Shown in pieces: positions 4,681 through 61,936 of a stretch of DNA of 64,000 nt. Source of the DNA: Mobula hypostoma (Eukaryota). The position numbers and the translations under genes are program-made. The notes beneath the pieces are model-generated. The model was not told where the DNA came from. It searched no databases and saw nothing but the letters and a program-made list of their open reading frames with translations. Within the stretch, counting starts at the first letter, position 1. Each line of letters opens with the position of its first letter. The DNA is taken from positions 55,554,001 through 55,618,000 of the forward strand of contig NC_086108.1 in NCBI RefSeq assembly GCF_963921235.1, written 5' to 3'.

Positions 4681-6214
4681 CATACTCTAGTCCACTGGAA
4701 AAGAATTAGTACTGACCGAACCTGCAAGTTGACCTTTAGGGAATCCTGCAATAGGAATCCCAAGTCCATTTGTACTTAGGACTTTTGAATTTGCTCTCTA
4801 TTTCAGGAACAGTCTGTTCCTTTATTCCTTCTACCAAAGTGCATGACCATACACTGTATTCCATCTGCCACTTCTTTGCCCATTCCCCCAATCTATCCAA
4901 GTCTTCTGCAGACTCCCTGTTTCTGTATCCCTACCTGTCCCTCCACCTATCTTTATATCATCTGCAAACTTGGCTACAAAGCCATCAATTCCATCATCCA
5001 GATCATTAACATATATCATGAAAAGTAGTAACCCAGCATGAATCCCTGCAGAACACCATTAGTCACCGGCAGCCAGCCAGAAAAGGCCCCCTTTATTCAC
5101 CCTCTTTGTCTTCAGTTAGTCCATGCTGGTATCTTCCCTATAAGACCATGGGTTCCAATCTTGTTTTGCAGCCTCACGTGTGGCACCTTCTCAAAGCCCT
5201 TCTGAAAGTCCAATTAAACAACATATACTGATTCTCCTTAGTCTGTCGTGCCTGCTATTTCCTCTAAGAATTCCAGCAGATTTGATAAGTGAGAAACCAT
5301 GTAGGAACCTTAAGGAAACCATGTAGATCTTGCCACCTCTGCATGCCAACTTGGCTGAACAGAGACACACTTTTAGTAATAGACTAAGACAACTGCACTA
5401 CTCCAAAGAGCATTATATGAGGTCATTCTTACCTTTGGCGCTTTGGTAGAAGGAACAAATGAACAGACTATTTCCTAAATGGAGAACAAATTCAGAAGTC
5501 GTAGGTACAAATGGACATGGGATTCGCAGTGCAGGAAGTGATGACCTGTATAATGAGTCAACATATACAGTATCTGGGAAGTGATTACCACATCCTGTTA
5601 GACTGTTTGAAGTAACATTTTTTATTCTTTCTTACTTCTCTCCTAATATTTGTGTATTTATGCACTTGTAATGCTACTGTGACACTGTAATTTCCTTTGG
5701 GATCAATAAAGTATCTATTTATTTAATCATGTGCCTCTTAAGTACTCCAAGACCTCATTCTTAATAATGGACTCCATCATCTTCCCAACCACTAAAGTCA
5801 GGCTAACTGGCCTGTAATTTCTTGTCTTTTGCCTCCCACTCTTCTTAAAGAGTATAGTGGCATTTGCAATTTTTTCGGTGCTCTGAAACCATTCCAGGAT
5901 TTAGTGATTCTTGAAAAAACAGTAATAATGACTCTACAATCGCTTCAGCTATCTCTTTCAGAGCCATGGAATGTAGCCAATCTGGTCCATGTGACATATC
6001 TACATAGTTTCAAGCCTCTCCACTAACTAAGAACCTTCTCCTCAGTAATAGCAGCTATGCTTATTTCTGTCCCAATGCTCAAATTGCTGGCATATTTCTC
6101 TCATCTTCCACAGTGAAATCTGACACAAAATATTTATTTGGTATGTTCATGATTTCCTTGTTCCCCATTGCTATCTCTCCAGCATCCGATGTCAACCCTT
6201 ACCTTTATTTTACC

Positions 6215-6429
6215 GCAAACAACAGGAATTCTGCAGATGCTGGAAATTCAAGCAACATACATCAAAGTTGCTGGTGAACACAGCAGGCCAAGCAGCATCT
6301 ATAGGAAGAGGCGCAGTCGACGTTTCAGGCCGAGACCCTTCGGCAGGTCTCGGCCTGAAACGTCGACTGCGCCTCTTCCTATAGATGCTGCTTGGCCTGC
6401 TGTGTTCACCAGCAGCTTTGATGTATGTT
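6215..6429. mobile_element. Penelope-derived non-coding fold-back element with 13-bp TSD
   Basis: 84-bp inverted arms 6254-6337 and 6346-6429 (1 mismatch, 8-nt spacer). TSD CCTTTATTTTACC at 6202-6214 and 6430-6442. Arm sequence matches the Penelope terminus at 61262-61345. Confidence 0.9.
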
Positions 6430-7229
6430 CCTTTATTTTACCCTTGGGATTGAGTACCAACCTGATTTTCCTAATCTACCTGCCTTTGAAAGTCCCACGT
6501 GATGAATGTAACATAATGTTGCCCTTTTTACATGCCTTTTCTCTCTCCTGTGTTCCCCTCCATGGATTCTTTCTGATCTGCTGATATCCTCCAGGGCTCT
6601 GTGTGTGTTTAAATAAATAGGTGCTTCAGGCTCTTCAGGCTCTTCAGAACTGGAATTTAGAAAACCTACACTGGGATTTCAACTTTTTTAAAAGAAGACT
6701 TCACATTTTAAATAAATAATATTCATACCAAGATTTAAGTGGTAGTGAACTGGGAAAAAAACTATTCTTTGAGCCATTTTGTAAGAAATAGTGGTTTTGG
6801 ATCTTTATTAATATTTAAGTCCATCTGATTGATGCTGGATTTTGGAGTGGTTCATTGGATTCTACTTTGCATTATTCTTTGTAACTATGACAGCAGATAT
6901 GTGATGAGTACAGATCAGAAGTCTTCATTAATTGGTAATACTGCTGTTTAATTTGAAAGATGAATTTAAACAAAATTCATCTGAAGTTGGGCAGTACTAA
7001 TCAGTACATTTGGACATGCTGGGACATAGTGTGTATCCCACCCAGTGTTGGTTTAGGTGAAGCAATTAGTTATGAAATAAAATTAAAGTGGGAGAATGTT
7101 ATCTGGAGAACTGACAGTACATCTCATACAGTGGAAATATATAGGTCAGTAGCTTGAGGTGCCAATTTTTGATGTCTGCTTTCAATCAGTAAAGTAAAAA
7201 TAGGATTGCAGAAAATTCCACACTTAATA

Positions 7230-13599: not shown

Positions 13600-14637
13600 T
13601 TCATCATTTACAAGCATCAAAAATATTTTTGCTTTATTCTTAGGTGAGAGATCATGTTTGAGTTAAGAGGGTTTGGAAAGAGGATCTTAAATGCAATGAA
13701 CTCTTTGTAAATAACTTTATAAAAAAAAGTTACATTTCCGGCTAAATCTGATTAGAATATTCAAATATGCCAGCCTACAAAAGCAGCAACATAAATAAGC
13801 AGCCAGTGAGGAACTGCGTATCCACCTTCCACAGTCACAGGTGCTATAGTTGATTTTTTTTTCCTCTGGCTTGTAGTGTAAAAGCAACTAGCACAGGCAT
13901 TTTCCACATCTGGGTGGCACATCTCCAGTTAGTATTATTTTTTGGTTAGTTCAGGGTTCATTACTTCCTATGTGCTACAATTTTCTTCTGATAGATTTTG
14001 ACCACTCATACTTTTTTACCCGACTTACTGCCAAAACTTATTGCTAAATTGAATGAGGTAATTATAGAGAAAGTGTGCAAATGTATTCTGAGTTCACACC
14101 TTGGTTTTTTATACATTTTGAAGTCTAATATTTGCGTTCCTATAAGGGAGTTTTGGTTGTCAAGAACACATGCTAGAAATGAGTGGACTACTCAAGGGCG
14201 TCAGGCATTGCATGCATTGTATGTACATTCTCCATTTCAAATCTGCAAATACAGAAAGCCATTCTCTTTCCCTACATCCAGTTATTTCGCATTAGTGGCA
14301 CAAGATTGTCAACTGAATAAATGAGTTGATGTTGAAGGTGAGAGGATGAATGTAGAATAGCAAATAAAAGGAATGCTATGTGTGCATATCTTTAATTGAA
14401 AAATAAGAACCAGAGAGTGCTGTTTCTCCTCTAATCTATTTAGTCATAAGGGTCCAGCTTCAATTTTAATGATTTAATGTGGCATCATGCAATTTATTTA
14501 CAGCTATACAAGTGATTCATATTATGTCTGTGAGAACTGTTTTTTTGTTCATTTTCCTCTGGTAAAAATAATTACTTGTTTCCAACAGATTGTTTTTAAA
14601 AGATGTTTAGATATAATTTAGTAATACATTTCATATA

Positions 14638-15168
14638 CAGTACTGTGCAAATATTTTAGGTACAAAATGTCTTAGGGTGCTGAAGACATTTGCACAGTAC
14701 TGCATTTTTTAACATGGAGTGGAGGATGAGTTTGTAAATCTGGCAGGAGCAAAGGATGTTGGGAATGTAAGGAGGTTTGAGCACCATACAAGGTGTGTGG
14801 GACAGATGGCAAAGAAAGAGTGCTGGGGTGGGTGGGGGGGGTGGTTAGCATGGGTGCAGACACACCCAGCCTTGAGACACTAGACAAGGTCGTTTGATTC
14901 TATACAATTGGTTTACTGATCAGTACTGAATGTCTCTCTGGTGCTTCCCATGCCCTCCCCTCTCCCTTCCCCCTTTCCCACCCATGATTCCCCTCTCCCT
15001 GCCCTCTTCCCACTCTCAGATCACAATAGACCCATATTAGAATCAGATTTATCACAACTCACATATGTCGTGATTTTTTGCAGCAATACATAAAATTACT
15101 ACAGTACTCTGCAAATGTCTTAGGCACCCTAACTATATATATGAGCCTAAGACACTTGCACAGTACTG
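14638..15168. mobile_element. Tc1/mariner-type MITE with self-palindromic ~65-bp TIRs
   Basis: TA|CAGTACTGTGCAA ... TTGCACAGTACTG|TA. TIR units 14638-14702 and 15102-15168 are inverted copies of each other and each is itself an inverted repeat. Confidence 0.85.
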
Positions 15169-16346
15169 TATCATCTTGGAAATGAGTAAAGTTATAATTG
15201 TGAGAGGCCTTTGAGCATTTGTTTCTTGATTATAGGTACAATGCATAGATGTCTTAGGTTGAAAAGATTATGTTTATGTTGCATCTAGTTGTGATTGTGA
15301 AAGTCCAAATCACAAAATAGAACAATGAATTTAAAGAACTGGCTAGTCAAATCATTATTTTGTGTTTCAATGCCTACAAATAGCTATGCTTGTAGTCCTG
15401 AATGTTTGTCTTTTTGGCCTCAGTGAATGAGTTGGAGAAAAGCAACAGAAGCATAAGTTGCTTTCCATAGATTTTGAAATTATTTTTGTGCAAATTCAAA
15501 CATAGCAAACTTCAACAAATATTGTGTATTTTCAATAAACTGTTCTATTTCTATTGTTATATCTTTCTTATAATTATATTACTCCAACGACTTAAAGTCA
15601 GGGGAATGCTGGGCTATCTATAATATGGATTCATTTTACTGTACATCTTAAAAAATGGATGTCCTGCTACCCTATAATTTTTAGGATTTCAAAACTAAAC
15701 CTTGGCACCATTAACCATGATCCCTATTACAGTATTCACCACATTGAACCTCATTCCTCTCCATGATTTTGCTATTAAATACAATGAAATGTGACTTTTT
15801 ATTTAAAACATTTTTGTTAAAATGTTTCATGCTTGTTAAATTGAAAATGTTTATTTCCTTGAATTATTTCCCTAATTGTTATGAAAATTCTAATACTTCT
15901 GCGGAACAATGAAACAAATTTTATTTGCAGCAACTCCTGTTACAGTAAAGTAGAAGTTTACATTTCTGAGAATGTAAATGGCATCTAAAACTTCAGGTAG
16001 CGGCATTAGCTAATAATTATATCATTCTTTAAAAATCAGAGAATGTCGTCAATCTATTGAAAACTAGGTCTTCAAGTAACTTCAAATTACCAACAAATAA
16101 TACAATTTGATTTTGTTTTAGAAGTCTTTGCCACCTCCTAGAAGCATTTATGATTCAGGGCATCAATTGGTGAGCCAATATCCTCAATTTAAAGGTCAGA
16201 AGCCTTAACATCAACTCAAGTGTGTGTTTTATTCTTGGTTTTATTTTTCATTGCAAAAGATTTGACTGAATGCTGCTGACAATGAGAAAGCACAAATCAA
16301 AATTTATTCTTAGTTGCATGTTGGCCAAGTGAGTGCTGGTCAAACT

Positions 16347-24470: not shown

Positions 24471-24869
24471 ATTTTTTTCAGCTGCAGTAGTTATAAACAG
24501 AGGTATTTTATAATTCTCTTGGGAGCTTAACACGCAAAATACCAAGGGATTCTTTCTGTTGACCTAAAAAGACATTATCTGATTGAAATCATGTAAGATC
24601 AATTACAGAATAGGACTGGAACCTCGGAATACATAGTAAACAATGAAACTGTGGACGGTCTGCTTCCAGTAGCTTGCCTAAGCAGGAAAGGCACTAGAGA
24701 ATCAGCAGTGTTGTTGATTGCCATGTGTGCCACATTTGATGATGCTGCATGGATCACTGATGTGTAGGGAACAAACAGGGTGCGATACAAATTGAAAAGG
24801 AGAGCCATATAAAATAAAGAAATTGAGGGACCGTTTCTTTGAGCACTTTGTTCTAGCCGCTGCAAAAGG

Positions 24870-25290
24870 CAGCATCCCCGGTGACCACCTATTTCAATTC
24901 AACTTCCCATTCCTTTCCGAACATGTCTGTCCATGGCCACCTCTACTGTCGTGATGAGGCCATACACAGGTTGGTGATGCAATACCTGGTATTCCATCAC
25001 AGATACTAACCATTCCTCCATGGGCTCTGGACTCTGTCTGCACTTCTTTCTGCCTCAGTAAAGCAGCCAACATAATCAAAAACTCCACTTACCTCCTCCC
25101 CAACATCCTCTCTTCTATCCCCCCATTGGGTAGGAGATACAAAAACCTGAAAACATCTATTACCAGGTTCAAGGATAGCTTCTATCCCATTGTTATAAGA
25201 CTACTGAATGTTTCTCATGTGATAAGATGGACACTTGACCTCAGTCTACCTTGTGACTTTGCACATTTCCTCTATTCTGTAACAGTTTAT
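24870..25290 (+). mobile_element. Short Penelope fragment followed by a Rex1 3' fragment
   Basis: 24870-24995 parallels 60778-60900. 25020-25290 parallels Rex 3' regions (AAAGCAGCCAACATAATCAA...AGGATAGCTTCTATCCC). Confidence 0.6.
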
Positions 25291-28486: not shown

Positions 28487-29490
28487 AAATCTAGCTGAGT
28501 GGTGTCATAACAACAACCTCTTACTGAAGGCAACATACACAAAAATGCTGGAGGAACTCAGCAGGCCAGGCAGCATCTATGGAAAGGAGTAAACAAGCAA
28601 CGTTTCTGGGTGAGACCCTTCATCAGAATCTCTTACTCAATGTCAGCAAGACTAAAAAGCTGAATATTGACCTCAGGAGGAGGAAACCAGAAGTCCATGA
28701 GCCAGTACTCAACAGAGGATCAGAGTTGGAGAGGGTTAGCAAATTTAAATTCCTTAATGTTATTATTTCGGAGGTCCTATCCTGGACCCAGCAAGTGAGA
28801 GCAATTACAAAGAAAGCGTGCCAGGGCGTCTACTTCCTAAGGAGTTTGTGTAGAGTTGGAAGGACATCTAAAACTTTGGCTAACTTCGAGAGATGTGCAG
28901 TGGAGACTATATTGACTGGCTGCATCATGGCCTGGTATGGATACACTAATGCTGTTGAACAGAAAATCCTACAAAAAGTAGCGGATTGAGCCCTGTCCAT
29001 CATGGGTAAAGCCCTCCCCATTATTGAACTCATCTACACGAAACGCTGACACAGGAAAGCAACATCCATCATCAGGGATCCCCACCACTTAGGGCTTCTC
29101 CCTTTTCACTGCTGCCATCAGAAAGAAGGTACAGGAGCCTCAGGACTCACATCACTATCCTCAAATATCAGGCTCTTGAAGCAAAGGGGATAACTTCACT
29201 TAACTTCACTTAACCCATCATTGAAATGTTCCCACAACCTATGGACTCACTTTCAAGGGCTCTTCATCTCATGTTCTCGATATTTGTTGTGTATTTATTT
29301 ATTTATTATTTTCTCTTTTGTATCTGTACAGTTTTGCACACTGGTCGTCTGCCCTGTTGGTGTAGTCTTTCATTGATTCTATTACGGTTATTGGATTTAT
29401 TGAGTATGCCCACAAGAAAATGAATTTCAGGGTCGTATAAAGTGCCATATATGTACTTTGATAAAAATTTACATTGAACTTTGAAGTTTG
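28487..29490 (+). mobile_element. Rex1/Babar 3' fragment with nested Penelope terminal piece (about 28528-28626, minus)
   Basis: Peptide LNVSKTKKLNIDLRR...FKFLNVIISEVLSW...VETILTGCIMAWYG. The insert is flanked by AACCTCTTACT/AATCTCTTACT. Confidence 0.85.
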
Positions 29491-31944: not shown

Positions 31945-32835
31945 GCCTCCATTTCCCATGCATCAACGCTCACCCCATCTTCCTGCCACTTTTATAGTGA
32001 TAGAGTCCCTCTTGCCCTCACCTACCACCCCAACAGCCTCCGCAACCAACACATTATCCTCTGCAAATTCCACCATTTCCGAAGGGATCTTAGCACCGAA
32101 AATCTCTTTATCTTCCCCCTCTCTCTCCACTTTCTGCAGGGGTTGTTCCCTCCACAATTCCCTTGTCCAGTTGTCCCTCCATTCAGGGCCCCAAACTGTC
32201 CTTCCCAGTGAGGCAACATTTCTCCTGTAAACCTGCTGAAGTTGTCTATTGTGTCTGGTGGTCCTGATGCGGCCTCCTCTACTTTTGTGAGACACATTGT
32301 ATATTGGGGGACAGCCTTGTTGAGCACCTCTGCACCATCCACCACAAGTGGAACTTCCCAGTGGCCAAACATTTTAATTTTGATTCCGATTCTGTTCTGA
32401 CTGGCCAGTCCATGGTCTCCTCTTGTGCCTAAATGAGGTACGTTCAGGTTGCAGGAGCAGCACCTCTGGGTACCCTCTAACCTGATGGCATGAATATCGG
32501 TTTCTCCTTTTAGTAAAACAAATTCCCTCCTCCCGCTTTCTCTATTCCCTACTTTGACCTACCCATTACTTTTCACTGGGTCCCCTCCTCCTTCCCTTTC
32601 TCCTACTGTCCACTCTCCTCTCCTATCAGATAGTTCCTTCTCCAGCCCTTGACCTTTCCCATCCAGCTGGCTTCACCTATCACCTTCCAGCTAGCATCTT
32701 TCCCCTCTCCCCTCCTTTTTATTCTGGCATCATCTCTCTTCCTTCTCAGTCCTGAAGAAGGGTCTTGGCCCAAAACATTGACTGTTTATTCTTTTCCATA
32801 GATATTGCCTGACCTGCTGAGTTCCTCCAGAGTTC
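31945..32835 (+). mobile_element. Degenerate Penelope-like element (RT end, GIY-YIG region, terminal repeat)
   Basis: Peptide DRVPLALTYHPNSL...IILCKFHHF, homology to 60610-60930, and terminus CAGTCCTGAAGAAGGGTCTTGGCCCAAAACATTGACTG. Confidence 0.85.
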
Positions 32836-33797
32836 TAGAATTCCGTTCCCTGCTGTTCCTTAAGAGCTATCAGTTATTTGCCTTGATCGCTGCATTCTAC
32901 TGAAATGATCTTTGGAGGCTGTATGACTGCTCAAGAGAACACTATGAGCTGATAAAATGACTGAGTTTGGTGCAATGTTATTGCTCTGTTTATTCCCTAG
33001 AAATTTAATTGCATAATGCTTTTTTTAGCATTGTGCAATTAAAATTAATTTCTCTCTCCCCATTCTCCAAACCAAAAACTTGGTTTGCATCACTTGAGAA
33101 ATTGGATAGGGCACTTCTGAACATAGAAACAGGAAAAAATAATCCTGGAGGAACTCTGTGAGTCAAGCAACATTTTTGGGGGATGATAGGGAATTGTTGG
33201 TATACCAAGATTGAGTGGAACATCTAAACACACAGCACTCTCTTCATTTTGGACTAATCCCAACCAAGCTGTCAAGGTTGGTGCCTTTCTAATCAGACAG
33301 ACTAACCTCTACCTTGCAGACATCACGATCTTTCTCTTTCACAGTGTCAAACTTCATGGTGCCCTAACCCCACATTTCCTGCTTTATTTCTTAAACCAAA
33401 ATCCACAAGGAGTACTGTCTTGGTAGGACCATTACCTCTGCTTCTCTGGCCTCACTGAATTTATCTGTTCATACTTTGGTCCACTTAAAGGGCATCTCTG
33501 TACCCCCACTCCTCCTCCACCCCCCAACAACTACTTTGTCTTCTAACTCTTGCCAGAATTCTCTGCTTTAAGCAGAGAACGGTTCCATAAGATCCATTAC
33601 TTGCTTTAGCCAGAATCATATCATCTACAAAGGTATTTATATGATTACCCTAAAAACCTTCATAGAGAGCGCCCTGATTAAAGTATCTATACTTGAAACT
33701 GGAGATCACTATAACTTAATGGCTTACCTCAGTTCTAGTCAAGCAGAAATGCTTTAAGTGTGCAGTACCCTTAGAATCATAACAGTTTGAATACTTC

Positions 33798-34024
33798 GTA
33801 AACAACAGGAATTCTGCAGATGCTGGAAATTCAAGCAACATACATCAAAGTTGCTGGTGAACGCAGCAGGCCAAGCAGCATCTATAGGAAGAGGCGCAGT
33901 CTACGTTTCAGGCCGAGACCCTTCGTCAGGACCTGACGAAGGGTCTCGGCCTGAAACGTAGACTGCGCCTCTTCCTATAGATGCTGCTTGGCCTGCTGCG
34001 TTCACCAGCAACTTTGATGTATGT
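33798..34024. mobile_element. Penelope-derived perfect fold-back element with 14-bp TSD
   Basis: Perfect 93-bp inverted arms 33838-33930 and 33932-34024 with a 1-nt spacer. TSD AGTTTGAATACTTC at 33784-33797 and 34025-34038. Confidence 0.93.
33898..33933 (-). ncRNA. Minimal type I hammerhead ribozyme motif (minus-strand arm)
   Basis: Minus strand reads GGUC-CUGACGA-AGGGUCUCGGCCU-GAAA-CG-UA-GACU: complete core, 4-bp stem I, NUH triplet GUA. Confidence 0.65.
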
Positions 34025-36974
34025 AGTTTGAATACTTCATCGCTTTTTGCCAAGCAATGTATTTTTATCAGAGGGACCAATTAAGATAAAAAAAAACACT
34101 TCTGATTTTCCAAGTTTAGACTTGGCAACATATTGCTACAGTGAATGTTGAGACACAAAGGCAGTGTGGACGCTGCAGTGGTATTCCAGAGTGGTCAGGT
34201 GACAGGATGGGGGCGGGACTAGTCCATGCAGAGGTTTTCTCCTTAGATCTTACAGCAATCAAAACAAAGAGTGCATTATGTTCTTGGATGTAGTGCCCGG
34301 CAAGCATACAGCTGTGCGTAGATAATTATTTGCAATGACATAACAATCCTCATCACAGATTACCAGGATAGCAGACTACATTTTATCCCTATCACACTTC
34401 CAGTATCATCACATGGTCCCATGGTCTTTGCACTTTATTTGTCTACTTGCACTATACTTCCTCTGTAATTGTAACGCTCTTTTTTGCTTTTTGTCTTTCT
34501 TTACCATTTCGATGCAATTATGTATGGCATGTTCTGATTGGATGTCCCACTAAACAAAAGTTTTTCACTGTGTCTTGGTACATGTGACAATAATATACCA
34601 ATAACAATACCACTCTCAGGTCTGGAGGACGTTGTAAACTTTATTGCCCTATTTTCATAAGGAAGGAGACCATTTTGCATACCATTTGAACCTTTGCGGC
34701 AACTTCTGCTTGTTGCAGATTACCTTATCTGCAAGACGCAGGCGAAAGTAAAATCAAAGAGCTGTTACGATAATTGTGATCCATTTCTGTATTGGAATGA
34801 TCTGCAGTAGACTCAAGTATTTCCAGAACTGAAAATTAGATAAGAGTGTTTCACTGCTCAGCTGGAGGTGTTTATTTAAAAAATATAATTTAACTTTGTG
34901 AAATTGATTGCGTGATATTGATTGATGCTAGGTATTAATTAATGTGCATAGATCAACTGTACAATCCTAATGAGGTGGTGTGGAGAATGCTCTGTATCAA
35001 GATTCTGGTGATTCAACTGATGTCCTTTCATACTTTTCAAGTTCAATAACATTTTCTCATAATGGATTTGAACCTTAGTTTCAGCCTCACCTTCTCTCGC
35101 TGTTTCTTCTGGCTTTCTGACTTTTTCAATAATTTTCCTCCCTCCCTGCTGTGATTTTCTATTAATGACAACTGGAAAAGGCAGTTGATTAAAATCAAGC
35201 AAACAAACTCTTTGATTATATTTGTGTTTCTTCAGAAATCCTTAACCCATTGCTTTCTAATAGGGTTTAGTCCAGTGTTGATTTCATTTAATTACAAATC
35301 CCAGGGGCACTGGTAACAGCACCAATAGTGGAGATTTGTGCAGAAAGGAACCCCGCAATGCTAATAGCTAGTATCAAATAACTGCAGTAAAGTGAAGAAG
35401 TAACAAAAGAAACCCCAGATTTATAAGTTTAGAATGCACAGTAAGCAACTTTATGAAAAACAATTGGTGCCAGCCTCTAAAGCAGATGTTTAGCAATCAG
35501 TGTGGAAGTGGCGTGTATTTTAAATATAAAGGGAATACTTTGCTGAACCTATTTAAAATCCTTGCATTAATTTGCTGTTAGCAACTCCTACACAAGTTTA
35601 ATGTGGCCTTTGTGAAGATCACTTTACCTGGCACTAGGTCCTTGGAAAAGTTGAGTAATTGGACTGATCTGAGAGGAGTTAAGGATCTTTCATGACACTT
35701 CCACTTTAGATAAATTATCAATGAGCCCAAGACTTTGTAAGTTGCGTATGTTGGAAGAGAATTTTGTTTTTGGGCATTTCCATATTTCACTCAATGTTGG
35801 GTGTTTTGGTAAAGATCTTTCTTTTGATATTTTGTTTCTTCTTCTTGTCAAGATTGTTTTTAGTTTGCATAGCATTGTGAAAATTGATGCACTTGGGTGT
35901 TGCTTCAGTGTGTTGTAAAATAACTTGTCACTTCATATAAGGAGAAGAAACTCATAACTCACTAATTGCAGCTGCAATGACACCTGAAGCTTTCAATTTC
36001 TCCCCAATGAGATCCATAAGAATCAATGCCAACTGAAATATGTTTACCTTTACCACTTAATGAGGCAAGCTGCCTTGAATTGGTAACATCCAATGTGCAA
36101 TTTCTAGGTAGTATTTGAAATAATGACAATGCTTCTTGTAGAAGTAATGGTTTTTTTTACATTTACTTGTGTTATATGTAGAAAGCTTCACAGAGACGTA
36201 CAATGCAGAAGACCCATTGTTTTATGTTTTTCTTGAGAAAATTATGTTTTCAGTCCTGCTCCCTTAGACTTCTTCCCATGTTTGTCTAAATATTTTAGTC
36301 AAAGTTTTTATTTAAATCCCTTTTAAAAGTTATGTCTCATATCTGATAGTACCAGTTTGATATTTCCTGTCAGCTTCTATTTAGGTGAGGGGCAGCAATG
36401 GTCTCAAGTTTCCTGTGAAAATGAGGCATCCACTGAACATGACATGAAGCCTTTAACTGAAGGTCTTTGACTAAGTGCAAGATACCACCAATGAAAACCA
36501 TGAGAGAATAAGATTTATTCAAATATAAACCATATGACTTCTACCCTAAGAATAAGTTTGCACTTAATATGCAAAGTCTGGCCTTTGAAATCATCAGGAC
36601 ACATGAAAAGTCAATGTATAGGAGTAGCCACGTTGTGAATGTATTTTTAGAAGTAGAGAAAATCTTGATTAGGTTTGCCACATTAGATAGTCTACCTATA
36701 ATCACCATCCTCTTGGTTCAAGAAAATTATTCATATCTGATAAAAGTGGGAAAGAGGCTTTCTGTTATCAGTCAGTATTGAAGAAGCTTTAGGTATAAAG
36801 GTAATCAATTAAAAAGTTAGATCAGGTCATTCCATAGTGATGCAGGTCTAATTAGATCTGAAGAATTGCTTTTTAGATACTTCAGTCTACTTTGTTTTGG
36901 ACCTGACATTCCTCCTCTCGGGTATTCTGTTGATCTCCATGCTCTTCCTTCTCCTTGTGGCTTTAATTATTTGA

Positions 36975-51128: not shown

Positions 51129-52558
51129 CAGTGCCTATAAAAAGTATCACCCCCCCCCCCCGGAAGTTTTCATGTTTTATTGTTTTACAACATTGAATCA
51201 CAGTGGATTTTATTTGGCTTTTTTGACACTGATCAACAGAAAAAGACTTGTGTCAAAGTGAAAACAGATCTCCATAAAGTTAGCTAAATTAATTACAAGT
51301 GTAAAACACAAAATAATTGATTGCGTAAGTATTCACCCCCTTCAAGTCAGTATTTAGTAGATGTACCTTTGGCAACAATTACAGCCTAGAGTCTGTGAAG
51401 ATAGATCTCTATCAGCTTTGCACATCTGGATGCTACAATTTTTACCCATTCTTCTTTACGGAACAGCTCAAGCTCTATCAGATTGTATAGAGATCATGAG
51501 TGAATAGTCCTTTTCAAGTCCAGCCACAAATTCTCAATTGGATTGAGGTCTGGACTCTGACTTGGCCACTCTAGGACATTAACTTCATTGCTCTTAAGCC
51601 ATTCCTGTGTAACTTTGGCTTTATGCTTGGGGTCATTGTCTTGCTGGAAGACAAATCTTCCCTCAAGGCGCAGTTCTCTTGCAGACTGTGTCAGGTTTTC
51701 CTCCGGGATTTCCCTGTATTTTGCTGCATTCATTTTACCCTCTACCTTCACAAGCCTTTCAGAGCCTGCTGCAGTAAAGCACCCCCTCAGGATAATGCAT
51801 CCACCACCATGCTTCATAATCGGGATAAAGCTCCCATAAAGCTGTGACTGGTGAAGCACCCAGGCAACAGTTGTTGCTTGTGCAGTCTCTCCCACCTCGG
51901 TCACCAAAGCTTGTAACTCCTCCGGAGTTGTCACAGGTCTCTTGGTGGCCTCACTCACTAGTCCCCTTCTTGCACGGTTACTCACTTTTTGAGGATGGCC
52001 TGCTCTACGCAGATTTACAGCTGTGCCATATTCTTTCCATTTCTTGATGATTGACTTAACTGTACTCCAAAGGATATTCAGTGACTTGGAAATTTTCTTG
52101 TATCCATCTCTTCACTTGTGCTTTTCAAGTACCTTGTTGCGAAATTGCTTGGAGTGTTCTCTTCTCTTCATGGTGTAGATTTTAACAGGATACAGACTCG
52201 CCAGCAGTTGGTTCTTCCAGATACCTGTGTATATTTACTGTAATCAATTGAAACACCTTGCCTGCACACAGATCTCCATTTAACTAATTATGTGACTTAT
52301 AAAACCAATTGCCTGTATCAGTGATGATTTGTGTGTCATATTAAAGGGGGTGACTACTTATCCAATCAATTATTGTATGTTTTATATTTGTAATTAATTT
52401 AGATCACTTTGTAGAGATCTGTTTTCAATTTGAGATGAAAGAGTCTTTTTCTGTTGATCAGTATCAAAAGAAGTCAAATTAAATCCACTGCGATTCAGTG
52501 TTGTTTAACGATAAAACAAGAAAACTTCCAAGAGGGTGAATATTTTTTATAGGCACTG
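51129..52558 (-). mobile_element. Tc1 (DD34E) transposon, IR/DR-type long TIRs, internally deleted
   Basis: Ends CAGTGCCTATAAAAA ... TTTTTATAGGCACTG|TA with ~215-bp inverted repeats and inner direct repeats. Transposase starts near 52171 (MKRREHSKQ). QQDNDPKH...SPDLNPIENLW has 34 residues between D and E. Confidence 0.95.
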
Positions 52559-53134: not shown

Positions 53135-54955
53135 CATGCAACACATACAAAGTGCTGGAGGAACTCAGCAGCCCAGGCAGCAATGATGGAAATTAATAAA
53201 CAGTCAACATTTTGGGCTGAGAACCTTCCTCAGGACTGGAAAGGGGGGGAGAAGACACAAGAATAAAATGGTAGGGTGGGGAAGGAGGACAGTTACAAGG
53301 TGAGGGGTAAAGAAAGCCAGGTAGGAGGGAAAGATGAAGGGCTGGAGAGGAGGGAATCTGATAAGAGTGGACATGGGAGAAAGGGAAGAAGGAGGAGCAC
53401 TAGGGGTGTGATAGGCAGGTGAGAAGTGTTAAAAGGCCAGAGTGGAGAATAGCAGAAGAGGTAAGGGTGAGGTAAGAAAGTTTTTACTGGGAGGAGAAAT
53501 CGATGTTGATGCTATCATGTAAGAGGCTACCCAGACAGAATATGAGTTGATGCTCATCCATCCTGAGAGTGGCCTCATTGTGGCACAAGAGGAGGTCATA
53601 CACAAACATCTTAGAACAGGAATGGGAACAGGATTTAAAATGGTTGGCCACCAGGAAATTCCATTTTTGGTAGATGGAGCAGATGTGCTTGACAAAGCGG
53701 TCCCCCTGTCTATGACAGGTGTCACCAATGTAGAGGAGGCCACTTCGGGAGCACTGGATATAATAGACAACCCCAACAGAATCACAGGTGAAGTGTTCCC
53801 TCACCTGGAAGTACTGTTTGGGGGCTAAATAGAGCTGAGGGAGGGTGTGAATGTGCAGGTGTAGCACTTTGGCCACTTGCAGGGTTAAGTGCCAGGAGGG
53901 AGATTAGCAGGGAGGGATGAATAGAAAAGGGAATCATGGAGGGAGCAATTCCTGCAGGGAACAGAGAATGGAAGGGAGATAAAGATGTATTTGGTGGTAG
54001 GATCCCTTTGGAGATGGTGGAAGATGAGGGGAATGATGTATTGGATGCAGGCTCATGGAATAGTAGATTAGGACAAGAGGAACTCTATCCCTGCTAACGT
54101 GGTGGGAAATAGAGGAGATGTGGGTAAGGGCAGCATCAATGGTTGACAAAAGGAATCCCCATTCTTTGATGAAGTAAGATACCTCTGATGTCCTGGAAAG
54201 GAAAGCCTCATCCTGGGAGATGAATGAGCTGAGAAAAGGAATAGCATTTTTACAGGACACAGCATGGGAAGAGGTATAGGCAAGATAGCCGTGGGAATGG
54301 TGCCTTTATAAAGGATGTTGTTAAAAAGTTTGTCTCCAGAGATGGAGACAGAGAGATTGAGAAAAGGGAGAGAAGTATCAGAAATGGACCAAGTGAATTA
54401 AAGGGCAGGGTGGAAGTTGGAGGCAAAGTTGATGAAATTGACAAGCTCAGCATGGGTGCATGAAGCAGCACCAATGTTGTTGTTAATGTAGTAAGGAAGA
54501 GTTGGAGAGTATTACCAAGGAAGGCTTGGAAAATAGACTATTCTACATAGCTACCGAAGAGGCAGGCATAGCTGACTCCATGCGAGTGCTCATGGTTACC
54601 CCTTGAGTCTGAGAGGAGCCAAAGCAGAAATTATTTTGAGTGAGGACCAGTTCTGCCAGATGGAGGAGGTTGGTGGTGGAGGAGAACTGGGTGGTGCTCA
54701 TGTTAAGAAAGAAATGAAGGGCTTAAAGGCCTTCTTGATGGGGGTTGTAGAAGTGTGTAGGGACTGGACTTCCATGATGAAAATGAGAGTGTCACGGCCA
54801 GGAGGTGAGGAGATTGAAATCATGTGAAGTATTGCAGATGTAGGAAGAAAGGGGCTGAAGCTAGGGGAATAGAATGGAGTTGAGGTATGAGGACACAAGC
54901 TCAGTGGGACAGGAGCACATAGAGACAATGGGCCTACCCAGACAGTCAGGCTGAC
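53135..54955 (-). mobile_element. Degenerate Penelope-like element (RT C-half, GIY-YIG, terminal repeat)
   Basis: Peptides VGVVYYIQCSRSGLLYIGDT, SCKNAIPF, RDRVPLVLIY and LIFIMEVQSLHTS. Confidence 0.88.
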
Positions 54956-60232: not shown

Positions 60233-60515
60233 GTGGCAGAAATAAGATGCTCTATTCTACAAAGGAAAAATATTGCTTTTTGTATCCCCTATGCCACTCT
60301 AACTCTATTATGCATCAGTGGTTGTCAGAAAATATAAGTAATGGTATAATGTTTGCCAAGACACGACTCATGATAATAAAATATGTAAATTTCGTAGTTC
60401 AGCACAAGTGTGCATTAAGTTTAAAAAAGAGAAATAATTATAGTTCATGAACATATTTTGATCATCTTAAAGAAATATATTCTTAAGGGTTTTTGTCAAG
60501 CTCCTTTATTATTTT

Positions 60516-61350
60516 CCCTCCCCACTGATCTCCCTCCTGGCACTTATCCGTGTAAGCGGAACAAGTGCTACACGTGCCCTTACACTTCCTCCCTTACCAA
60601 CATTCAGGGCCCCAAACAGTCCTTCCAGGTGAGGCAACACTTCACCTGTGAGTCGACTGGGGTGATATACTGCGTCCGGTGCTCCCGATGTGGCCTTTTA
60701 TATATTGGTGAGACCCGACGCAGACTGGGAGACCGCTTTGCTGAACATCTACGCTCTGTCCGCCAGAGAAAGCAGGATCTCCCAGTGGCCACACATTTTA
60801 ATTCCACATCCCATTTCCATTCTGACATGTCTATCCACGGCCTCCTCTACTGTAAAGATGAAGCCACACTCAGGTTGGAGGAACAACACCTTATATTCCG
60901 TCTGGGTAGCCTCCAACCTGATGGCATGAACATCGACTTCTCTAACTTCCGCTAGGCCCCACCTCCCCCTCGTACCCCATCTGTTACTCATTTTTATGAA
61001 CACATTCTTTCTCTCACTCTCCTTTTTCTCCCTCTGTCCCTCTGAATATACCTCTTGCCCATCCTCTGGGTCCCCCCCCCCCTTGTCTTTCTTCCCGGAC
61101 CTCCTGTCCCATGATCCTCTCGTATCCCTTTTGCCAATCACCTGTCCAGCTCTCGGCTCCATCTCTCCCTCTCCTGTCTTCTCCTATCATTTTGCATCTC
61201 CCCCTCCCCCTCCAGCTTTCAAATCCCTTACTCACTCTTCCTTCAGTTAGTCCTGACGAAGGGTCTCGGCCTGAAACGTCGACTGCACCTCTTCCTACAG
61301 ATGCTGCTTGGCCTGCTGCGTTCACCAGCAACTTTGATGTGTGTTGCTTG
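60516..61350 (+). mobile_element. Young 5'-truncated Penelope-like element: open GIY-YIG endonuclease frame + terminal repeat, 10-bp TSD
   Basis: Frame open to the stop at 60955: PCKRNKCYTC...GVIYCVRCSRCGLLYIGETRRRLGDRFAEH...VATHF...EEQHLIFRLGSLQPDGMN. TSD TTATTATTTT at 60506-60515 and 61351-61360. Confidence 0.93.
61249..61284 (+). ncRNA. Minimal type I hammerhead ribozyme motif
   Basis: AGUC-CUGACGA-AGGGUCUCGGCCU-GAAA-CG-UC-GACU. Stem I AGUC/GACU, core CUGACGA 61253-61259, GAAA 61273-61276, predicted cleavage after C61280. Confidence 0.75.
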
Positions 61351-61936
61351 TTATTATTTTATTCATAGGATAATCAAAAAATAGTTTTGATACTTAAAAG
61401 TAGTCTCAATAGACAATCACATTAATGCCGAATGTTGCAGCTTTTGCAAATCTCTACCCTGGCAATTGATGTGAATTGATGCTTTCCACTGTAGAACAAA
61501 CACTTGCTCCCCATGACATTTCTCCAACAAATGGCAATGTTCCAATCTTCCACATGACTGCGTATTATTTTACAATTTCTCCATTCTTATTCTTTCATGC
61601 TTTATTAGTATCGTGGTCGTTATCTATGTTTGTTAGACAGTCCACTAATATGACTGGCAAAGAATCAGTTTGTTGGTAAGTCTGCACTATAGTGGGCTGC
61701 TTCACTTTTTACAGAAGGTTGCTCACCTCATTCTGTCAACTCAGGATGAAACCTTATACATATATGAATGCAACAGTGATGTGTTGAGGTTGAAGTGTTC
61801 ACTATTAGTCAGAGGAAGGAGCTAAAGAGGTCATTATAATAAGTGGAACATCTGAAAATTCTCCTAGGACACATCCAAGTAGAATGTTCAGACTTTTTTT
61901 TTCATAATATCCTTCCAGTCAGTACACCAGATGGGG

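What the first reader, a model, noticed from the sequence alone, without database searches (positions are those of the whole stretch)
33784..34038. Perfect 93-bp palindromic mini-element made of two back-to-back hammerhead-bearing Penelope termini
Seen: a 227-bp insert with a clean 14-bp TSD consists of 40 unique bp plus two perfectly inverted 93-bp arms separated by one base. The symmetry axis sits right at the 5' edge of a hammerhead core (CUGACGA...GAAA CG UA), so both strands carry the core. Only the minus-strand copy keeps stem I. Established: Penelope-like elements carry minimal hammerheads in their terminal repeats and often insert with an inverted partial repeat. Inference: this is a minimal non-coding ribozyme-bearing retroposition product mobilised in trans by the GIY-YIG/RT element. 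Once transcribed it would fold into 93 bp of perfect dsRNA (ADAR/Dicer substrate) that masks the ribozymes. In DNA it could extrude a cruciform.
Basis: partly seen in the sequence, partly recalled or inferred. Interest (0 to 1): 0.7.

Follow-up and report, generated by a model that had tools for sequence, protein, structure and literature searches.

The report
Ultra-short two-armed Penelope retroelement insertion
This 227-base hairpin is a real, recent insertion, but it is the shortest form of the known 'inverted copy plus tail' pattern left by Penelope-like jumping genes, not a separate ribozyme-carrying mini-element.

Summary
It is a real, young insertion: contigs of two related organisms show the empty site with one TSD copy. 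The '40 unique bp' are not unique. They are the Penelope-like element (PLE) 'tail', also present on a second fold-back at 6215-6429. The parent is an abundant Neptune/Nematis-type PLE of a ray-like fish. Two 5'-truncated copies joined head to head, one with a 30-40-bp tail, inside one TSD, is the published PLE insertion pattern. Other family copies are joined at many different points: the 15 joints shown (of 365) are all different. This argues for a by-product of insertion over an amplified mini-element. The axis lies 29 nt upstream of the predicted cut, so the template was uncleaved. The hammerhead fold has essentially zero predicted occupancy in the hairpin. What stays open is a weak excess of junctions near the core's 5' edge (8 of 15; not significant once edge rows are dropped), and target overhangs resembling the tail start in 2 of 2 fold-backs. 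Both would fit priming from two nicks.

The parts
33784..33797 (.). Left copy of 14-bp target-site duplication
   Evidence: a single copy at the empty site in organism B (X5 record 16)
33798..33837 (-). 40-bp PLE 'tail' (3' extension of the terminal repeat, on one arm only)
   Evidence: same sequence at 6215-6254; 506 contigs of X2, 460 of X5 and 64 of X9 have loose ends at 33800, the family end (table 7)
33838..33932 (-). Long (tail-bearing) arm: 5'-truncated copy of the PLE terminal repeat, truncated in the 5' strand of hammerhead stem I
   Evidence: matches the native copy 61250-61344 at about 96%
33931..33932 (.). Head-to-head junction: 1-nt centre (33931) and 1 nt (33932) that fits either arm
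   Evidence: sequence; comparison with the native upstream sequence at 61.25 kb
33932..34024 (+). Short (tail-less) arm, identical to the long arm over 93 bp
   Evidence: (0 differences)
33898..33933 (-). Minimal type I hammerhead motif with 4-bp stem I; predicted cut between 33902 and 33901 (GUA)
   Evidence: predicted stem I pair probability 0.0002 in the arm alone and 0.0000 in the whole insert
33933..33960 (+). Hammerhead core without stem I (1 bp)
34025..34038 (.). Right copy of 14-bp target-site duplication
6202..6442 (.). Second, independently formed two-armed insertion of the same family: 13-bp TSD, 215-bp insert, same tail end, short arm ending 1 nt further, 8-nt spacer, 2-nt junction homology
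60506..61360 (+). 5'-truncated single copy of the parent PLE: C-terminal GIY-YIG ORF, 3' UTR, native hammerhead, no tail, probable 10-bp TSD

Best explanation
An ordinary, extremely 5'-truncated insertion of an abundant Neptune/Nematis-type Penelope-like element. Most likely mechanism: the element's GIY-YIG endonuclease nicks both target strands 14 nt apart. Each 3' end primes reverse transcription at one of two internal start sites 40 nt apart on the element's RNA: the tail end and the tail boundary. Both cDNAs run through the uncleaved hammerhead and stop at its 5' edge, where the native RNA has a competing hairpin. The two cDNA ends are joined over 1 nt of homology and filled in. This gives TSD - tail - arm - inverted arm - TSD. 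SHOWN: anatomy, empty sites, family identity, varied junctions, family end at the tail tip. FROM LITERATURE: the inverted-plus-tail pattern, both-strand nicking, two RT start sites bounding the tail, uncleaved RNA as template (shown for a Poseidon-clade element). INFERRED: two priming events at this locus, stalling at the hairpin, end joining. The palindrome and the doubled ribozyme motif are by-products with no function needed.
For: (1) Empty site: X5 (organism B) record 16 runs 33100-33783 straight into 34025-34587 (record positions 579|580); X10 (organism C) record 1 covers 33100-33774 and 34025-34201 with 12 letters between. That is 2 of 2 other-organism runs laid. (2) The tail recurs on the second fold-back; both fold-backs end at the same two points (p=134 and p=93/94), and other window copies end at p=97-100. 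(3) The family is very abundant: 60,174 contigs of X2 laid on the 1.8-kb stretch, with depth peaking over the arms and a smaller peak at a second repeat near 34.5-34.6 kb; the 15 joints shown of 365 are 15 different pairs. (4) Three of the 15 have a tail-bearing arm that stops at p=96-109, at or before the second start site, as twin priming predicts. (5) 8 of 15 joints have 2 or more shared letters, against 16% expected (p=0.0008; selected rows). (6) Within each window fold-back the arms share variants the other lacks (A-A 0 differences, B-B 1, A-B 2 over the shared part), so the two formed separately. (7) Parent ORF has CX4CxxC and GIY-YIG with CCHH; a 95%-identical homolog carries the RT YIDD motif. 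(8) Pattern described in PMC3846280, PMC8557442, PMC11167929 and PMC4209133.
Against: Some joints recur in both organisms A and B at depths well above the flanks (for example 33835>33932: 108.8 against about 14 in X2, 48.2 against about 4 in X5). This may mean that some short junction forms were re-amplified; the tool warns that depth is no copy number. Only 15 of 365 joints were visible, chosen as best supported, and the far ends of those copies were not seen. Classical twin priming gives non-overlapping arms, whereas these arms overlap fully, so two RNAs, strand displacement or fold-back copying must be invoked. No full-length copy of the family was seen. The biochemical support comes from a different PLE clade.
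Confidence: 0.8

Rival explanations
1. Same kind of insertion by-product, but made by fold-back (self-priming): one tail-primed cDNA ends at the hammerhead's 5' edge, folds on itself and is copied back; the endonuclease then resolves the hairpin at the tail boundary.
For: Arms are identical and share the minority GUA letter (G in about 88% of summed X2 depth at 33902). In both window cases the tail-bearing arm reaches further 5' than the other. The native template has a hairpin centred a few bases from the axis. Self-priming was proposed for PLE palindromic junctions in PMC3846280, and EN-mediated resolution for the tail in PMC8557442.
Against: A 1-nt loop cannot self-prime without an extra untemplated base (inference from the sequence). 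Folding back at the native hairpin of the 61-kb copy would leave a 6-nt loop, not the observed centre. Joints with a tail-only arm (3 of 15) are harder to explain this way.
Confidence: 0.3
2. One reading: a distinct non-autonomous palindromic mini-element whose own transcript is retroposed in trans, with the axis set by the ribozyme.
For: The insert keeps the 3' sequences the PLE protein should recognise. Both window long arms stop within 2 nt of each other. 8 of 15 displayed joints have one end within 10 nt of the core's 5' edge (p=0.007). Organism B has another copy with a nearby junction (X5 record 21, 33867-33955 with 4 gap letters). Three joints are shared between X2 and X5.
Against: Junctions differ between all copies seen. 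After dropping the 4 rows at p<=2, which may pile up at the edge of the reference, 4 of 11 remain near the edge (p=0.12). The axis is 29 nt from the predicted cut. A 93-bp duplex (-201 kcal/mol) would bury the short-arm start site. Each strand has only one sense motif, and single minimal hammerheads were inactive in PMC4209133.
Confidence: 0.1
3. Assembly or library fold-back artefact.
For: No displayed piece of the possible source run spans the centre (table 8); perfect palindromes are a known artefact type (own knowledge).
Against: Exact 14-bp TSD matching the empty site in two other organisms; one-sided tail; second example with another junction; many head-to-head joints in contigs of short-word assemblies from several runs; X2 record 13 runs from 21 nt inside the short arm into 561 nt of TSD and flank with 0 differences (under the tool's 31-letter bridging rule, and possibly the source sample).
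Confidence: 0.02

Closest known systems
Inverted-repeat insertions of EN+ Penelope-like elements with one-sided tail and TSD (Pen2a_Av and relatives, PMC3846280; general scheme, PMC8557442 Fig. 2; passages read)
   Same: Head-to-head 5'-truncated terminal repeats, 30-40-bp tail on one end only, one TSD around the unit, palindromes at the inverted junction.
   Different: Here both arms are truncated inside the terminal repeat, so no ORF remains and the whole insert is one perfect hairpin with a 1-nt centre.
Poseidon of Anolis carolinensis, PAc (PMC11167929; parts 1-2 of 4 read)
   Same: Two fixed 3' end points bounding the tail; hammerhead about 65-105 nt upstream of them; copies read through an uncleaved hammerhead.
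   Different: Different clade (this family has the CX2-5CxxC linker). PAc primes without homology to the target, whereas both window fold-backs show 7 of 9 target-to-tail matches at the short-arm end (post hoc, n=2).
Minimal type I hammerheads of metazoan PLEs (PMC4209133; parts 1-2 of 4 read)
   Same: Conserved core, extra nucleotide before stem II, short stem I, palindromic ACGU in place of stem III; pairs on opposite strands 100-700 bp apart were reported in Schistosoma.
   Different: The two motifs here abut. Position 11.1 is U rather than the conserved C. The predicted cut triplet is GUA where most family copies have GUC.
LINE-1 twin priming and proposed dual priming (PMC2837659; passages read)
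   Same: Two inverted cDNA pieces inside one TSD of similar length, joined over little or no homology.
   Different: L1 twin-priming arms come from different parts of one RNA, with a deletion; here the arms duplicate the same 93 nt and there is no poly(A).
Non-LTR retrozymes (bioRxiv 10.64898/2026.07.22.740005; part 1 of 5 and passages read)
   Same: Non-coding, PLE-terminal-repeat-derived, hammerhead-bearing.
   Different: Retrozymes are head-to-tail tandem units with two or more same-strand ribozymes; this is head to head with one sense motif per strand.

Membership tests
EN+ Penelope-like element insertion (inverted copy plus tail) | [quoted passage not shown] | tested here: met
   Arms about 96% identical to 61252-61344, downstream of an ORF with a GIY-YIG Pfam hit (E 1.7e-4, 22.2 bits, just under the 22.6 cut-off) and invariant C/C/H/H
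EN+ Penelope-like element insertion (inverted copy plus tail) | PLE-type reverse transcriptase upstream of the endonuclease | tested here: inconclusive
   The window copy is truncated before RT; homologs P0001 (95% identical) and P0011 (PF00078) carry the YIDD motif N-terminal to the same domain. No RT tree was built.
EN+ Penelope-like element insertion (inverted copy plus tail) | Inverted 5'-truncated copy joined at the 5' end | tested here: met
EN+ Penelope-like element insertion (inverted copy plus tail) | 30-40-bp tail at one end only | tested here: met
   40 bp here and on the second copy; hundreds of contigs end at the tail tip
EN+ Penelope-like element insertion (inverted copy plus tail) | Variable-length TSD confirmed by an empty site | tested here: met
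   14 bp; empty site in X5 and X10
Neptune/Nematis clades of PLEs | CX2-5CxxC motif in the RT-EN linker | tested here: met
   CX4CxxC in 60509-60952; criterion from PMC8557442. Neptune versus Nematis was not resolved.
Minimal type I hammerhead | Core nucleotides, stems I and II, palindromic loop-3 region | tested here: met
   Minus strand only: core intact, stem I 4 bp, stem II 3-4 bp. The plus strand lacks stem I.
Minimal type I hammerhead | Hammerhead fold is populated in its context | tested here: not met
   Predicted stem I probability 0.0000 in the full insert, 0.0002 in the arm alone, about 0.04 in the native copy (secondary-structure model only)
Minimal type I hammerhead | Self-cleavage (as a dimer) | not testable with these tools
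   needs an in vitro assay
Non-LTR retrozyme | Head-to-tail tandem units, each with a same-strand type I hammerhead | tested here: not met
   Head-to-head arrangement, one sense motif per strand
Non-autonomous mini-element family (SINE- or MITE-like) | Many dispersed copies sharing one structure and junction | tested here: inconclusive

The most novel reading that the evidence does not exclude
The thousands of young, very short two-armed copies in this ray-like genome record the in vivo PLE integration reaction. Both target nicks prime cDNA. The second primes by partial annealing of the target overhang to the RNA at the tail boundary (7 of 9 matches in both window cases). The reverse transcriptase stops preferentially at the hairpin on the hammerhead's 5' edge. 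This would explain how PLEs make inverted repeats with a one-sided tail, described as unresolved in PMC8557442, and would give the hammerhead region a structural role (a stop point) and not a cutting one.
Probability: 0.25. Interest if true: 0.5.

Novelty: new member of a known kind. Interest (0 to 1): 0.2.

Why it matters
As a single locus it matters little: it is a clean, recent example of a published insertion pattern and a usable lineage marker (absent at the same site in two relatives). As a population, such copies are a natural data set for how Penelope-like elements build inverted repeats and tails, and a possible genome-wide source of long perfect dsRNA when they land in transcribed DNA. 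Neither point was established here.

Tried and rejected
No whole genome is held for this window, so the genome-wide junction table could not be made. Pattern scans for the motif found 0 matches in viral contigs, metagenome contigs (29, 31) and prokaryote genomes (32). Rfam gave no hammerhead model hit at E<=1; the mir-3926 match (52 bits, gathering 82) is a generic hairpin score and was rejected. Host gene context: 133 of the window's 355 stop-to-stop frames of 55 aa or more (those in 22.5-47 kb) were scanned against Pfam; 2 hit (RVT_1, and a below-cut-off ALKBH8_N), neither taken as a host exon, so intronic or intergenic position is unknown. Expression: no RNA holder listed. Run X9 is only guessed to be RNA; it has one 208-nt flank piece at 33327-33534 and no displayed piece joining flank to insert. 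A>G and T>C places in X9 (4 and 9) are no higher than in the DNA runs (10 and 10; 18 and 14), and contigs cannot show editing, so this counts neither way. Polymorphism among individuals of organism A was not tested: only one DNA sample is listed. 'Axis at the cleavage site' was rejected (29 nt away). The arm-B comparison was out of register by one and was redone. Searches for print on the mechanism: 'Penelope-like' + 'twin priming' + 'inverted' gave 2 papers, neither on PLE mechanism by title and abstract start, not read; searches listed no paper on this family in rays. The library lacks most subscription papers, so this is not proof of absence. Supplements were not opened; Fig. S2 of PMC11167929 may bear on copy ends.

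Full report
Observation. Identical 14-bp repeats lie at 33784-33797 and 34025-34038 and enclose 227 bp. Arms 33838-33930 and 33932-34024 are exact reverse complements around one base. The RNA would fold at -205.8 kcal/mol, z = -28, with 0 of 200 shuffles as stable. A hammerhead core starts at 33933 on the plus strand and at 33929 on the minus strand. Stem I has 4 bp on the minus strand, 1 bp on the plus strand and 5 bp in the native context at 61.25 kb. Below, p is the distance from the axis along the element's sense strand; the core spans p=2-29 and the predicted cut follows p=29.

It is a real and young insertion. I laid four of the 24 listed runs on 33100-34900. In organism B (run X5), record 16 passes from 33783 directly to 34025 at adjacent record positions. 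In organism C (run X10), record 1 covers 33100-33774 and 34025-34201 with 12 letters between. Both are empty sites with one TSD copy, 2 of 2 other-organism runs laid. In X2, which may be the source sample and so is not independent, record 13 joins 21 nt of the short arm to the TSD and right flank with no difference. No displayed X2 piece spans the centre (30 pieces shown in all), so the centre rests on the assembly.

Parent family. The arms are about 96% identical to 61252-61344. That stretch follows a 3' UTR and an ORF end with a GIY-YIG hit just under the Pfam cut-off. The ORF's best homologs are ray proteins (95% to a Mobula hypostoma protein, 88% to Hypanus sabinus; 23 hits among 280 candidates). 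The alignment shows CX4CxxC, GIY-YIG with CCHH, and an upstream RT YIDD motif in the homologs. By the criteria in PMC8557442 (passages) this is a Neptune/Nematis-type PLE; I built no tree. The family is very abundant: 60,174 contigs of X2 were laid on the stretch, with depth peaking over the arms.

The '40 unique bp' are the PLE tail. They continue the terminal repeat and recur, with one difference, on a second two-armed insertion at 6215-6429, which has a 13-bp TSD. Both insertions end at p=134 on one side and p=93 or 94 on the other. Hundreds of contigs have loose ends at the tail tip (506 in X2, 460 in X5). The literature describes this layout. PMC3846280 (passages) reports inverted terminal repeats, an optional 31-bp tail, a 9-10-bp TSD and abundant palindromes at the inverted junction. 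PMC8557442 (passages) describes an adjacent inverted 5'-truncated copy and a 30-40-bp tail on one end. PMC11167929 (parts 1-2 of 4) shows that a purified PLE protein nicks and extends both strands, starts at two internal sites that bound the tail, and uses uncleaved RNA. PMC4209133 (parts 1-2 of 4) noted pairs of minimal hammerheads on opposite strands 100-700 bp apart, and found a single motif inactive.

By-product or mini-family? The two window copies have different junctions (1-nt centre against 8-nt spacer). Each has arms that match each other better than the other copy's: 0 differences in A, 1 in B, 2 between A and B over the shared part. They formed separately, or their arms were homogenised later. 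One search listed 365 joints and showed the 15 best supported. These are 15 different pairs, with ends from p=1 to p=109. That favours repeated de novo formation. Against this, three joints occur in both X2 and X5, and joint depths (31-277 in X2) exceed flank depth (about 14); the tool warns that this is no copy number, but re-amplification of some short forms is not excluded.

Relation to the ribozyme. The axis is 29 nt upstream of the predicted cut, so the copied RNA was uncleaved. Eight of the 15 joints have an end at p<=10, against 21% expected (p=0.007). Four rows with an end at p<=2 may pile up at the edge of my reference; without them 4 of 11 remain (p=0.12). The excess is a hint only. 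A simpler cause is at hand: the native RNA forms a hairpin centred a few bases upstream of the core, and 8 of 15 joints share 2 or more letters (16% expected, p=0.0008, selected rows). The hammerhead fold is worth about -5 to -6.5 kcal/mol against -201 for the hairpin, with stem I probability 0.0000. On either strand the antisense arm is transcribed first, and each strand has only one sense motif, so neither early folding nor a cis dimer is available (inference).

Mechanism. I favour priming from both nicks at the two start sites, followed by end joining. Three of the 15 joints have a tail-bearing arm that stops at p=96-109, as twin priming predicts (definition from PMC2837659, passages); their far ends were not visible. 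In both window fold-backs the TSD beside the short-arm end matches the start of the tail at 7 of 9 positions (0.2-0.3% of window positions do so; the single-arm copy has 2 of 9). This was noticed after the fact, with n=2. Fold-back copying of one cDNA remains a serious rival, because the arms are identical and overlap fully; it needs an extra untemplated base to give a 1-nt centre. The two probabilities overlap, since both routes fall under 'by-product of insertion'.

Not shown. Transcription through the insert, editing, siRNAs, cruciforms and polymorphism among individuals were not established. No host exon was found in the 133 frames scanned. Earlier notes of this scan on the same genome reach the same reading for other loci; they are unchecked leads and are not counted as support.

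Verdict. Real, recent and tidy, but a new member of a known kind. Interest 0.2. The part worth keeping is the genome-wide junction and target analysis that this family makes possible.

Noticed in passing
window 34025-34034 and 6430-6439: In both fold-backs the TSD copy next to the tail-less arm resembles the first bases of the tail (7 of 9 each; background 0.2-0.3%); the single-arm copy at 61351 does not (2 of 9). Post hoc, n=2.
   Followed up: partly
window 61234-61265: The native RNA is predicted to form a hairpin just upstream of and across the hammerhead core that competes with the ribozyme fold; the axis of the finding lies inside it.
   Followed up: partly
window 33952, 6357-6360 region, 61272: The young subfamily has U at hammerhead position 11.1 in all three window loci, where the older copies at 28.6, 32.8 and 53.2 kb have C; the long arm at 6347 also has a changed core (CUGCCGA).
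   Followed up: no
table 5c: Joints that go back to the tail tip (33851>33800, 33852>33800, 33901>33800) or to near the tail boundary (33929>33843) suggest short head-to-tail restarts at the same two start sites.
   Followed up: no
window 32180-32824 (+), 53135-53930 (-), 28530-28626 (-), 24824-24998 (+), 33145-33179: Older, diverged copies (63-79% identity) of related PLE subfamilies, some with GIY-YIG remnants.
   Followed up: partly
window 34460-34602: Another high-copy short repeat with fixed ends (hundreds of loose ends at 34557-34558, 34595 and 34602 in several runs) lies 450 bp right of the finding.
   Followed up: no
window 51494-52111 (-): Tc1/mariner-type transposase remnant (DDE_3, HTH_SB).
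   Followed up: no
window 14635-14705 and 15100-15170: Two related short imperfect inverted repeats (23-26-bp arms), MITE-like.
   Followed up: no
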